Assembly: GCA_035278105.1 (NCBI GenBank)
Contig: DATEJI010000108.1
Span: 142,350 to 206,349, forward strand
Source: Candidatus Saccharimonadales bacterium
GTDB lineage: Bacteria; Patescibacteriota; Saccharimonadia; Saccharimonadales; UBA4665
Direction: 5' to 3'
Length of the DNA stretch: 64,000 nucleotides
Part shown: in pieces, positions 33,789 through 62,454 of the stretch
How the letters are laid out: each line of letters opens with the position of its first letter
How positions within the stretch are numbered: the stretch's first letter is position 1
The notes under the pieces: model-generated
Told to the model about the DNA's origin: nothing
Database searches by the model: none
What the model saw: only the letters and a program-made list of their open reading frames with translations
Position numbers and translations under genes: made by a program

Positions 33789-33870
33789 TGGCAAGCCAGC
33801 GATTCGGCGACTATACCTTCATAGTGCACTTGGCATTCTTGAGGCGCACGTGCCGTAAGGGATGGTCGCC
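33789..33870. ncRNA. Dispersed structured element, copy 1
   Basis: Shares GACYATACCTTCA and TTCTTGAGGCG blocks with 43999-44085; stem 33806-33819/33857-33870 pairs at 13 of 14 positions. Confidence 0.6.
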
Positions 33871-33890
33871 AGAGATTCGGAGCGGCGGAT

Positions 33891-43998: not shown

Positions 43999-44085
43999 TG
44001 GTAGGCTTCTACGCGGTGACCATACCTTCACAACACGTAAGACTCGGCACTTCTTGAGGCGTGGGTGTTATAGGAGATAGTCGCG
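43999..44085. ncRNA. Dispersed structured element, copy 2
   Basis: Homologous to 33789-33870; AACAC/GTGTT helix where copy 1 has GCAC/GTGC. Confidence 0.6.
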
Positions 44086-44130
44086 CCTTCTAAGCAGTCG
44101 CATAATTTTCTCTCTAAAAATAGCAGCCGC

Positions 44131-44220
44131 CGAACAGCAATCATTATTTTGACGTGCTCAAACACCTCAAGGGCGTTGCGCCTTGAGAACTGCGCGCGAC
44201 AAAATAATGATTGCTGTTCG
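44131..44220. repeat. 90-nt hairpin: perfect 21-bp inverted repeat with an inner stem
   Basis: CGAACAGCAATCATTATTTTG 44131-44151 / CAAAATAATGATTGCTGTTCG 44200-44220; inner CTCAA-G-GGCG-TTG-CGCC-TTGAG. Confidence 0.9.
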
Positions 44221-60011: not shown

Positions 60012-60157
60012 AAATATCCTTTCTGCCGACTGGCGGAAAGGATTGCAGGCATGTGCATATCTTTCCCGCGGCGGCGGGCTAGATGGAGCACCTTATCCTC
60101 GTCGGATAGGTTGCCGGCAGATCAACGAGCTAGATCTCTCCCTGCACTCTGTATATT
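60012..60157 (-). promoter_or_regulatory. SAM-I-like riboswitch with an RBS-sequestering hairpin
   Basis: Minus strand AGAG...GGAGAGA...CGGCAACC...AGGTGCT...AAAGAT core directly upstream of metK; ATCCTTTC/GAAAGGAT stem covers the RBS. Confidence 0.88.
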
Positions 60158-60208
60158 CTTAGGTTGTTAACTTTTTCAGTATAGCACAGTGTGATATGCT
60201 TGGTCGCT

Positions 60209-62380: not shown

Positions 62381-62454
62381 TGGGGACTGGCCAAGTGGTA
62401 AGGCAACGGGTTCTGGTCCCGTGATCGGGGGTTCGAATCCCTCGTCCCCAGCCA
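62381..62454 (+). tRNA. tRNA-Gln (anticodon CTG)
   Basis: TGGGGAC/GTCCCCA acceptor stem, ACGGG-TTCTGGT-CCCGT anticodon arm, TTCGAAT T-loop, encoded CCA. Confidence 0.97.

What the first reader, a model, noticed from the sequence alone, without database searches (positions are those of the whole stretch)
33789..33870. Unrecognised ~85-nt structured element present twice, 10 kb apart (copy 1)
Seen: this copy and 43999-44085 share TGGYARGC, CGGYGACYATACCTTCA, GGCA(C)TTCTTGAGGCG and GAT.GTCGC in the same order. Both fold into a long stem with the same A-G mismatch, and one helix shows a compensatory G-C/A-T change (GCAC/GTGC versus ACAC/GTGT) while the loop TTCTTGAGGCG is invariant. Both lie just 3' of a minus-strand gene in unrelated contexts. 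I recognise no known riboswitch or ribozyme. Inference: a new ncRNA family or a small mobile/REP-like element.
Basis: partly seen in the sequence, partly recalled or inferred. Interest (0 to 1): 0.75.

Follow-up and report, generated by a model that had tools for sequence, protein, structure and literature searches.

The report
Tiny MITE from an IS1595-family transposon
The repeated ~70-base hairpin is a miniature non-coding transposon (MITE): just the two end-repeats of an IS1595-family insertion sequence found elsewhere in the same genome, so it is ordinary selfish DNA and not a new structured RNA.

Summary
The two stretches are related: nhmmer scores them E 1e-22 and 2e-25. They are two of about 13 copies of a 65-75-nt imperfect palindrome in this 1.66-Mb genome.

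Its fallback, a small mobile element, is right.

- **Arms.** They match, over about 26 nt (GGCGACTATNCCYTYAYARCA[A/C]GTA), the terminal inverted repeats of IS1595-family insertion sequences. One complete 2,780-bp element lies on another contig of the same genome. It has an intact transposase (Pfam DDE_Tnp_IS1595 1.5e-41, Zn ribbon 6.7e-13; NCBIfam 197.5 bits).
- **Flanks.** The small copies carry copy-specific 8-bp direct repeats, which are target-site duplications (permutation p = 4e-5). The full elements have 8-bp duplications too.
- **Against an RNA.** Rfam gives no match. Stem pairing is no better than column shuffles (76.9% against 76.2%). The "invariant" loop varies across the family. 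Copies lie in every gene context and in both orientations. Neither window copy holds a promoter-like or terminator-like site.

An IS1595-derived MITE with a 25-bp inverted repeat and an 8-bp direct repeat is already published for Haloquadratum. This is therefore a new member of a known kind, and of low interest.

The parts
33806..33870 (+). MITE copy 1 (65 nt). Left arm GGCGACTATACCTTCATAG..., right arm ...GGGATGGTCGCC. It has a 5-nt internal deletion relative to the family consensus.
   Evidence: (CM 65.4 bits, E 4e-14)
33798..33805 (.). Left target-site duplication of copy 1 (AGCGATTC)
   Evidence: 7 of 8 identical to the right flank; sequence
33871..33878 (.). Right target-site duplication of copy 1 (AGAGATTC)
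44015..44087 (+). MITE copy 2 (73 nt). Left arm GGTGACCATACCTTCACAACACGTA, right arm ...GGAGATAGTCGCGCC, with a 2-nt GC insertion at the tip.
   Evidence: (CM 73.6 bits, E 2.3e-16)
44007..44014 (.). Left target-site duplication of copy 2 (TTCTACGC)
   Evidence: It matches 44088-44095 at 7 of 8 once the 2-nt insertion in the right tip is allowed for.
44088..44095 (.). Right target-site duplication of copy 2 (TTCTAAGC)

Best explanation
The element is a miniature inverted-repeat transposable element (MITE). It is a 65-75-bp non-coding derivative of an IS1595-family insertion sequence, made of the two ~26-bp terminal inverted repeats joined by 16-22 bp of leftover internal sequence.

Shown here:
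- the family of about 13 dispersed copies;
- the match between its arms and the ends of IS1595-family elements;
- the 8-bp target-site duplications;
- a complete element with an intact transposase in the same genome.

Inferred, not shown:
- An IS1595-family DDE transposase, supplied in trans by a full-length element, binds the two arms, excises or copies the element and inserts it with an 8-bp staggered cut. Repair of that cut gives the flanking 8-bp direct repeats.
- The 'long stem' is only the consequence of two inverted transposase-binding ends lying close together.
- The shared 'loop' reflects common descent of the copies.
- The copies are most likely neutral passengers, kept only in intergenic DNA because insertions into genes are purged from this compact genome.
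For: 1. Family size. nhmmer and the covariance model R1 find 12 full copies and 1 partial copy on contigs C108 and C92.
2. Target duplications. With the element taken to start at GGCGAC, the 8 nt on either side are identical in 3 copies (ACGAACAA, GAGAGCTT, AAGAAGTA) and 7 of 8 in copy 1. Three further copies, including copy 2, match after a 1-2-nt shift caused by indels in the tips. Own left-right flank pairs average 4.1 of 8 identities against 1.9 for mismatched pairs (permutation p = 4e-5). A looser local-match test gave p < 5e-5.
3. Parent element. G000:C92:296191-298970 is 2,780 bp. It has perfect 28-bp inverted ends GGCGAGTATCCCTTTATAACAAGTAAGC and the 8-bp duplication TGACACAA. It encodes a 321-aa protein that hits Pfam DDE_Tnp_IS1595 (1.5e-41) and Zn_ribbon_IS1595 (6.7e-13), and NCBIfam 'IS1595 family transposase' at 197.5 bits against a cut-off of 75.
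4. Same ends in relatives. Full elements with 8-bp duplications occur in three genomes of the same genus or family: G021, G016 and G044. The same ends flank the closest transposase relatives in Saccharibacteria and Patescibacteria MAGs. Alignment A3 shows the MITE arms and IS ends are collinear for about 26 nt and then diverge.
5. Longer relatives. The same-genus genome G013 has ~111-nt elements with the same arms but an unrelated interior. Two of them have 8-bp duplications. The arms, not the loop, are therefore the conserved unit.
6. Precedent. An IS1595-family MITE with IR 25 and DR 8 is published (PMC3852290, Table 4).
Against: - Mobility was not observed directly. No empty site was found, because same-genus genomes are only 70-78% identical and their intergenic DNA cannot be aligned. 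The only sequencing run that holds the organism is its source metagenome, and it shows no allele lacking the element.
- The resident full-length element matches the MITE consensus arm at only 21 of 28 positions. The best match in the inner arm (ACAACACGTA) is to an element in another MAG, L107. The true parent may therefore be lost or unassembled.
- Copies average only 66% column identity, so the family may no longer be active.
- About 5 of the 13 copies have no clear duplication.
- An added host function such as RNA stabilisation is not excluded, because no RNA data exist.
Confidence: 0.93

Rival explanations
1. It is a new family of structured non-coding RNA (sRNA, riboswitch or ribozyme). 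Selection on the RNA would maintain the hairpin and the conserved loop TTCTTGAGGCG.
For: Well-preserved copies fold into a long hairpin that is much more stable than shuffles (z = -3.7 to -6.1). The core ACTTGG.A..TCTTGAGG is fairly well conserved among the copies.
Against: - No Rfam family matches either copy, even at E <= 10.
- Pairing and covariation are no better than column shuffles: 76.9% against 76.2%, with 129 of 500 shuffles as good, and a covariation score reached by 70 of 500 shuffles.
- The two window copies fold no better than shuffles.
- Copies sit in convergent, divergent and tandem intergenic regions in both orientations.
- Copy-specific 8-bp duplications flank them.
- The arms are the ends of an IS.
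- Relatives keep the arms but replace the interior.
- Neither window copy holds a promoter-like site.
Confidence: 0.03
2. It is a MITE by origin that the host has co-opted. When transcribed as part of a neighbouring mRNA's 3' or 5' untranslated region, the hairpin would act as an RNA stabiliser, processing site or transcription attenuator, as proposed for some Correia, ERIC and REP elements.
For: Several copies lie 0-50 nt past a stop codon (C108:477092, 800004, 790638, 112705, and copy 1). Copy 2 lies 49 nt upstream of the RmuC-like gene. The hairpins are stable where well preserved.
Against: No T-tract follows the stem, and no terminator-like site was scored inside either window copy. Positions and orientations are heterogeneous. 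Stems decay without compensation. The elements are absent from the orthologous neighbourhoods in 22 genomes of the same genus, so no conserved role exists.
Confidence: 0.04
3. It is a REP/BIME-type palindrome, or a PATE, mobilised by a Y1 (RAYT or IS200/IS605-type) transposase.
For: The genome encodes Y1_Tnp-domain proteins. The elements are short intergenic palindromes.
Against: By general knowledge of these families, Y1-transposase elements make no target-site duplications and have subterminal hairpins rather than terminal inverted repeats. Here 8-bp duplications are present, and the arms match IS1595-family ends over 26 nt.
Confidence: 0.005

Closest known systems
IS1595-family MITE of Haloquadratum walsbyi (ISHwa6-related; Kamoun et al. 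2013, PMC3852290, Table 4)
   Same: It is a non-coding derivative of an IS1595-family IS, with ~25-bp inverted repeats, 8-bp direct repeats and a handful of copies (7 there, about 13 here).
   Different: That element is 165 bp and archaeal. This one is 65-75 bp, essentially two ends with almost no interior, and sits in a small-genome bacterium whose transposase relatives are Saccharibacteria and Patescibacteria MAGs. No sequence similarity between the two was tested.
IS1595-family insertion sequences (ISfinder family; Pfam PF12762 and PF12760; NCBIfam NF033547)
   Same: The terminal inverted repeat sequence and the 8-bp target duplication are the same as in the full elements of this genome and its relatives. 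Those elements encode a Zn-ribbon plus DDE transposase of this family.
   Different: The MITE has no transposase gene. The full elements here are 2.2-2.9 kb and carry passenger genes (DUF4352, NYN). The subgroup (ISNwi1-like or ISSod11-like, judged from remembered end consensus) could not be tested because ISfinder was not available.
Classical bacterial MITEs (Correia/NEMIS of Neisseria, RUP of Streptococcus pneumoniae, ERIC/IRU of enterobacteria)
   Same: They are short, intergenic, hairpin-forming inverted-repeat elements that are dispersed in a genome and mobilised in trans.
   Different: By general knowledge, those are 100-160 bp, belong to other IS families and have other duplications (for example TA for Correia). 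This one is about half that size, with an 8-bp duplication.

Membership tests
MITE (non-autonomous derivative of a DDE insertion sequence) | Terminal inverted repeats at both ends | tested here: met
   The arms GGCGACTAT.CCTTCACAACACGTA and TACGTGCTGTAAGG.GATAGTCGCC are present in 12 copies.
MITE (non-autonomous derivative of a DDE insertion sequence) | Copy-specific target-site duplications of fixed length | tested here: met
   The duplications are 8 bp. They are 8 of 8 identical in 3 copies and 7 of 8 in copy 1, and 3 further copies including copy 2 match after a 1-2-nt shift. Permutation p = 4e-5.
MITE (non-autonomous derivative of a DDE insertion sequence) | Small size, no coding capacity, several dispersed copies | tested here: met
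   The copies are 65-75 nt. Twelve full copies and one partial copy lie on two contigs, all intergenic.
MITE (non-autonomous derivative of a DDE insertion sequence) | Ends match those of an autonomous IS that encodes a transposase | tested here: met
   Alignment A3 shows the arms and IS ends are collinear for about 26 nt. Identity is 21 of 28 to the resident IS and 24 of 26 to the G021 IS. The transposase was identified.
MITE (non-autonomous derivative of a DDE insertion sequence) | Direct evidence of mobility (filled versus empty sites) | tested here: inconclusive
   Same-genus genomes lack the element, but at 70-78% identity their intergenic DNA cannot be aligned. The single available run shows only the filled alleles.
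IS1595 family (the partner element G000:C92:296191-298970) | Transposase with an N-terminal Zn ribbon and an IS1595-type DDE domain | tested here: met
   PF12762 at 1.5e-41 over the full-length profile, PF12760 at 6.7e-13, and NF033547 at 197.5 bits against a cut-off of 75.
IS1595 family (the partner element G000:C92:296191-298970) | 8-bp direct target repeats (family trait by general knowledge; also 'DR 8' in PMC3852290, Table 4) | tested here: met
   The duplications are TGACACAA, TTACGCTT, TGAAAGTA and CTGTTGGC in four full elements.
Structured ncRNA family (riboswitch, ribozyme or sRNA) | Match to a curated RNA family | tested here: not met
   Rfam 15 gives no match on either copy at the gathering threshold or at E <= 10.
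Structured ncRNA family (riboswitch, ribozyme or sRNA) | Base pairs supported by covariation beyond what conservation gives | tested here: not met
   76.9% of cells pair, against 76.2% in shuffles, and 129 of 500 shuffles do as well. RNAalifold recovers no long stem. Power is limited by the 13 sequences.
Structured ncRNA family (riboswitch, ribozyme or sRNA) | Constant position and orientation relative to genes, or its own promoter and terminator | tested here: not met
   Contexts and strands are mixed. Neither window copy holds a promoter-like or terminator-like site.
REP/BIME with a RAYT transposase | No target duplication; association with a Y1 transposase | tested here: not met
   Target duplications are present. 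Y1_Tnp genes exist in the genome, but the arms match IS1595-family ends.

The most novel reading that the evidence does not exclude
At 65-75 bp this would be one of the smallest MITEs known. If it is still mobile, it shows that two ~26-bp ends with under 20 bp between them are all an IS1595-family transposase needs in cis. It would also show that such elements multiply even in a reduced genome of Patescibacteria/Saccharibacteria type, where some copies next to stop codons or promoters may have been co-opted as RNA hairpins.
Probability: 0.08. Interest if true: 0.35.

Novelty: new member of a known kind. Interest (0 to 1): 0.15.

Why it matters
It matters little beyond annotation.

- It removes a false candidate for a new structured RNA.
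- It explains a repeat family of about 13 copies in this genome.
- It defines the ~26-bp end sequence (GGCGACTATNCCYTYAYARCA[A/C]GTA) of an IS1595-family lineage. The same ends occur in full elements in several same-genus and same-family genomes, and beside the closest transposase relatives in Saccharibacteria and Patescibacteria MAGs.
- That end sequence helps to mask such hairpins in future ncRNA screens of these small genomes. It also helps to delimit their IS elements, some of which carry passenger genes.

Tried and rejected
- **Rfam.** Searches at the gathering threshold and at E <= 10 gave nothing on the element.
- **RNAalifold on the MAFFT alignment.** It returned only a 5-pair helix, because indels misalign the arms. 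I therefore scored a hand-defined hairpin instead.
- **Iterated nhmmer.** It picked up both strands because the element is palindromic. Orientation was fixed from the first, asymmetric profile.
- **BLAST of one copy against 40 relatives.** It found nothing. The covariance model found only G013 and G021.
- **A TIR-like hit at C108:33634 and one on C56.** Both are chance matches with no partner arm.
- **Empty-site search in same-genus genomes.** It failed. The flanking genes are found, but the intergenic DNA is too diverged and of different length.
- **Sequencing runs.** Only the source rhizosphere metagenome holds the locus. Its contigs span both copies with no alternative joint. No RNA run was found.
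- **Exact interior pattern in the public collections.** There were no matches among the GTDB representative genomes. Two matches in the JGI metagenome contigs fall in what reads as a protein-coding frame of an AT-rich organism and show no MITE arms; I take them as chance matches.
- **The other four IS1595-family transposase genes in this genome.** They have no recognisable ends of this type.
- **Transposase against annotated plasmids.** It returned only 'IS1595 family transposase' entries at 41% identity or less, so no named close relative exists.

Full report
**Observation**

The two stretches exist as described. They align over a collinear core of about 70 nt. A profile HMM built from the pair scores each at E 1.6e-22 and 2.3e-25 against the whole 1.66-Mb assembly, so the similarity is far beyond chance.

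The same search showed that these are not two isolated copies. Eleven further loci on contigs C108 and C92 match. A covariance model built from the 13 sequences recovers 12 full copies at E from 5e-20 to 2e-9, plus one partial copy.

The family consensus is GGCGACTAT-ACCTTCACAACACGTA-ACACTTGGCAGCTCTTGAGGCG-TACGTGCTGTAAGG-GGATAGTCGCC. Exact borders are window 33806-33870 for copy 1 and 44015-44087 for copy 2.

**What it is not**

- Rfam 15 has no match on either copy at the gathering threshold or at E <= 10.
- The two window copies fold no better than dinucleotide shuffles (z = -1.06 and -0.55 on the plus strand). The best-preserved copies do form a long hairpin (z = -3.7 to -6.1).
- Across the family the hairpin is explained by conservation of a palindromic consensus, not by compensation. 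76.9% of cells are paired, against 76.2% after shuffling partners within columns, and 129 of 500 shuffles do as well. The covariation score is reached by 70 of 500 shuffles.
- The 'invariant loop' TTCTTGAGGCG is invariant only between the two window copies. Elsewhere it reads CTCTTGAGGTG, CTCTTGAAGTG, GTCTTGAGGCC or CTCGCACGGTG.
- Neither window copy holds a promoter-like or terminator-like site.
- Copies sit between convergent, divergent and tandem genes, in both orientations.

**What it is**

Three observations identify it.

1. *Flanking direct repeats.* Most copies are bracketed by short direct repeats that differ from copy to copy. Taking the element to begin at GGCGAC and end at GTCGCC, the 8 nt on either side are:
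   - ACGAACAA / ACGAACAA
   - GAGAGCTT / GAGAGCTT
   - AAGAAGTA / AAGAAGTA
   - AGCGATTC / AGAGATTC (copy 1)
   - TTCTACGC / TTCTAAGC (copy 2, after allowing for a 2-nt insertion in the right tip)

   Two more copies match after a 1-2-nt shift. Own left-right flank pairs share 4.1 of 8 positions on average, against 1.9 for mismatched pairs (permutation p = 4e-5). An earlier local-match test gave p < 5e-5. These are target-site duplications.

2. *The same ends at insertion-sequence spacing.* A scan for the arm sequence in the genome and 60 relatives found inverted pairs of the same motif 1.4-2.9 kb apart.

   In the window's own genome, C92:296191-298970 is a 2,780-bp element. It has perfect 28-bp inverted ends GGCGAGTATCCCTTTATAACAAGTAAGC and the 8-bp duplication TGACACAA. 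It encodes a 321-aa protein with Pfam DDE_Tnp_IS1595 (1.5e-41, whole profile) and Zn_ribbon_IS1595 (6.7e-13). The same protein scores 197.5 bits on NCBIfam 'IS1595 family transposase', cut-off 75. The element also carries a DUF4352 passenger gene.

   Equivalent elements with 8-bp duplications occur in G021 and G016 (same genus) and G044 (same family).

3. *Collinearity of arms and IS ends.* Alignment A3 shows that the MITE arms and these IS ends are collinear for about 26 nt from the tip (GGCGACTATNCCYTYAYARCA[A/C]GTA) and unrelated beyond.
   - The reverse-complemented MITE consensus matches the G021 IS end at 24 of 26 positions.
   - The forward MITE consensus arm matches the resident IS end at 21 of 28 positions.
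   - The closest transposase relatives elsewhere (45-63% identity) are mostly in Saccharibacteria and Patescibacteria MAGs, and they carry the same ends.

In addition, the same-genus genome G013 has ~111-nt elements with the same arms but a different interior, and two of them have 8-bp duplications. This shows that the arms, not the loop, are the conserved functional unit.

**Mechanism**

The structure, the relation to the IS and the duplications are shown. The rest is inferred.

An IS1595-family DDE transposase made by a full-length element would recognise the two ~26-bp ends and move the 65-75-bp element. Staggered cleavage of the target, followed by repair, would give the 8-bp duplications. 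The hairpin is a by-product of two inverted binding sites lying about 20 bp apart.

All copies are intergenic or touch a stop codon by at most 1 nt. This is expected if insertions into genes are purged from a compact genome.

Which transposase mobilised them is uncertain. The genome has five IS1595-family transposase genes, but only the C92 element has matching ends. The inner arm of the MITE (ACAACACGTA) is closer to an element in another MAG, L107. Copies are also fairly diverged, with a mean column identity of 66%, so the family may be old or inactive.

**Limits**

- No empty site could be shown. Same-genus genomes are only 70-78% identical in the flanking genes and their intergenic regions differ in length.
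- The only run holding the locus is the source rhizosphere metagenome. Its contigs span both copies without an alternative joint.
- No RNA data exist, so transcription or co-option cannot be excluded.
- The exact interior was not found in other GTDB representative genomes. Two matches in the JGI metagenome contigs fall in what reads as a protein-coding frame of an AT-rich organism and show no MITE arms; I take them as chance matches.

**Comparison with what is known**

MITEs derived from IS1595-family elements are already described. Kamoun et al. 2013 list an ISHwa6-related MITE of Haloquadratum walsbyi with a size of 165 bp, 7 copies, IR 25 and DR 8 (PMC3852290, Table 4). The present element has the same architecture and is about half that size.

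REP/RAYT-type elements are excluded by the target duplications and the match to the IS ends, although Y1 transposase genes exist in the genome.

**Verdict**

The reading as a new ncRNA is not supported, and the fallback reading as a small mobile element is correct. This is a new member of a known kind, of low interest. Its practical value is for annotating and masking IS1595-type ends in small Patescibacteria-like genomes.

Noticed in passing
window 44130-44217: A separate ~90-nt near-perfect hairpin lies right next to MITE copy 2. Its 50-nt core (window 44151-44200) recurs at G000:C92:276229-276279 (94% identity) and in two inverted pieces at C92:276083-276131. A similar piece occurs in same-genus genome G015. 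Metagenome contigs branch at 44173 and 44200. It is probably another small repeat family.
   Followed up: partly
G000:C92:296191-298970 (L073:501-3280); G021:C10:7614-10476 (L074:501-3363): The full-length IS1595-family elements are 2.2-2.9 kb and carry passenger genes beside the transposase. In this genome these are a DUF4352 protein and a 110-aa ORF with no Pfam hit. In G021 they are a NYN-domain protein and a 201-aa ORF with no Pfam hit.
   Followed up: partly
G000:C108:800004-800076 (L012:2003-2075): This MITE copy has no direct flanking repeat. Instead its flanks form an extended inverted repeat (AAAGTGA..GCTTAGCGG / CCGCTCAGC..TCACTTT), as if it had inserted into the loop of an existing hairpin just after a stop codon.
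   Followed up: no
G013:C15:9012-9123, C168:973-1083, C125:5328-5440 (L020, L023, L029): A same-genus genome carries ~111-nt MITEs with the same IS1595-type arms but a different, GC-rich interior, present in both orientations. G021:C10:1490-1580 has a 91-nt variant.
   Followed up: partly
G000:C108:22842-23309, C92:223129-223551, C132:368-784, C30:14642-15089: There are four more IS1595-family transposase genes in this 1.66-Mb genome. One looks frameshifted (C30). None has recognisable ends of the MITE type. The degenerate MITE copy at C92:222095-222159 lies about 580 nt upstream of one of them.
   Followed up: partly
window 60054-60159 (-) and 62381-62454 (+): There is a SAM-I riboswitch (Rfam RF00162, 53.4 bits) and a tRNA-Gln(CTG). 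Both are ordinary features and the only Rfam or ARAGORN hits in the window.
   Followed up: no
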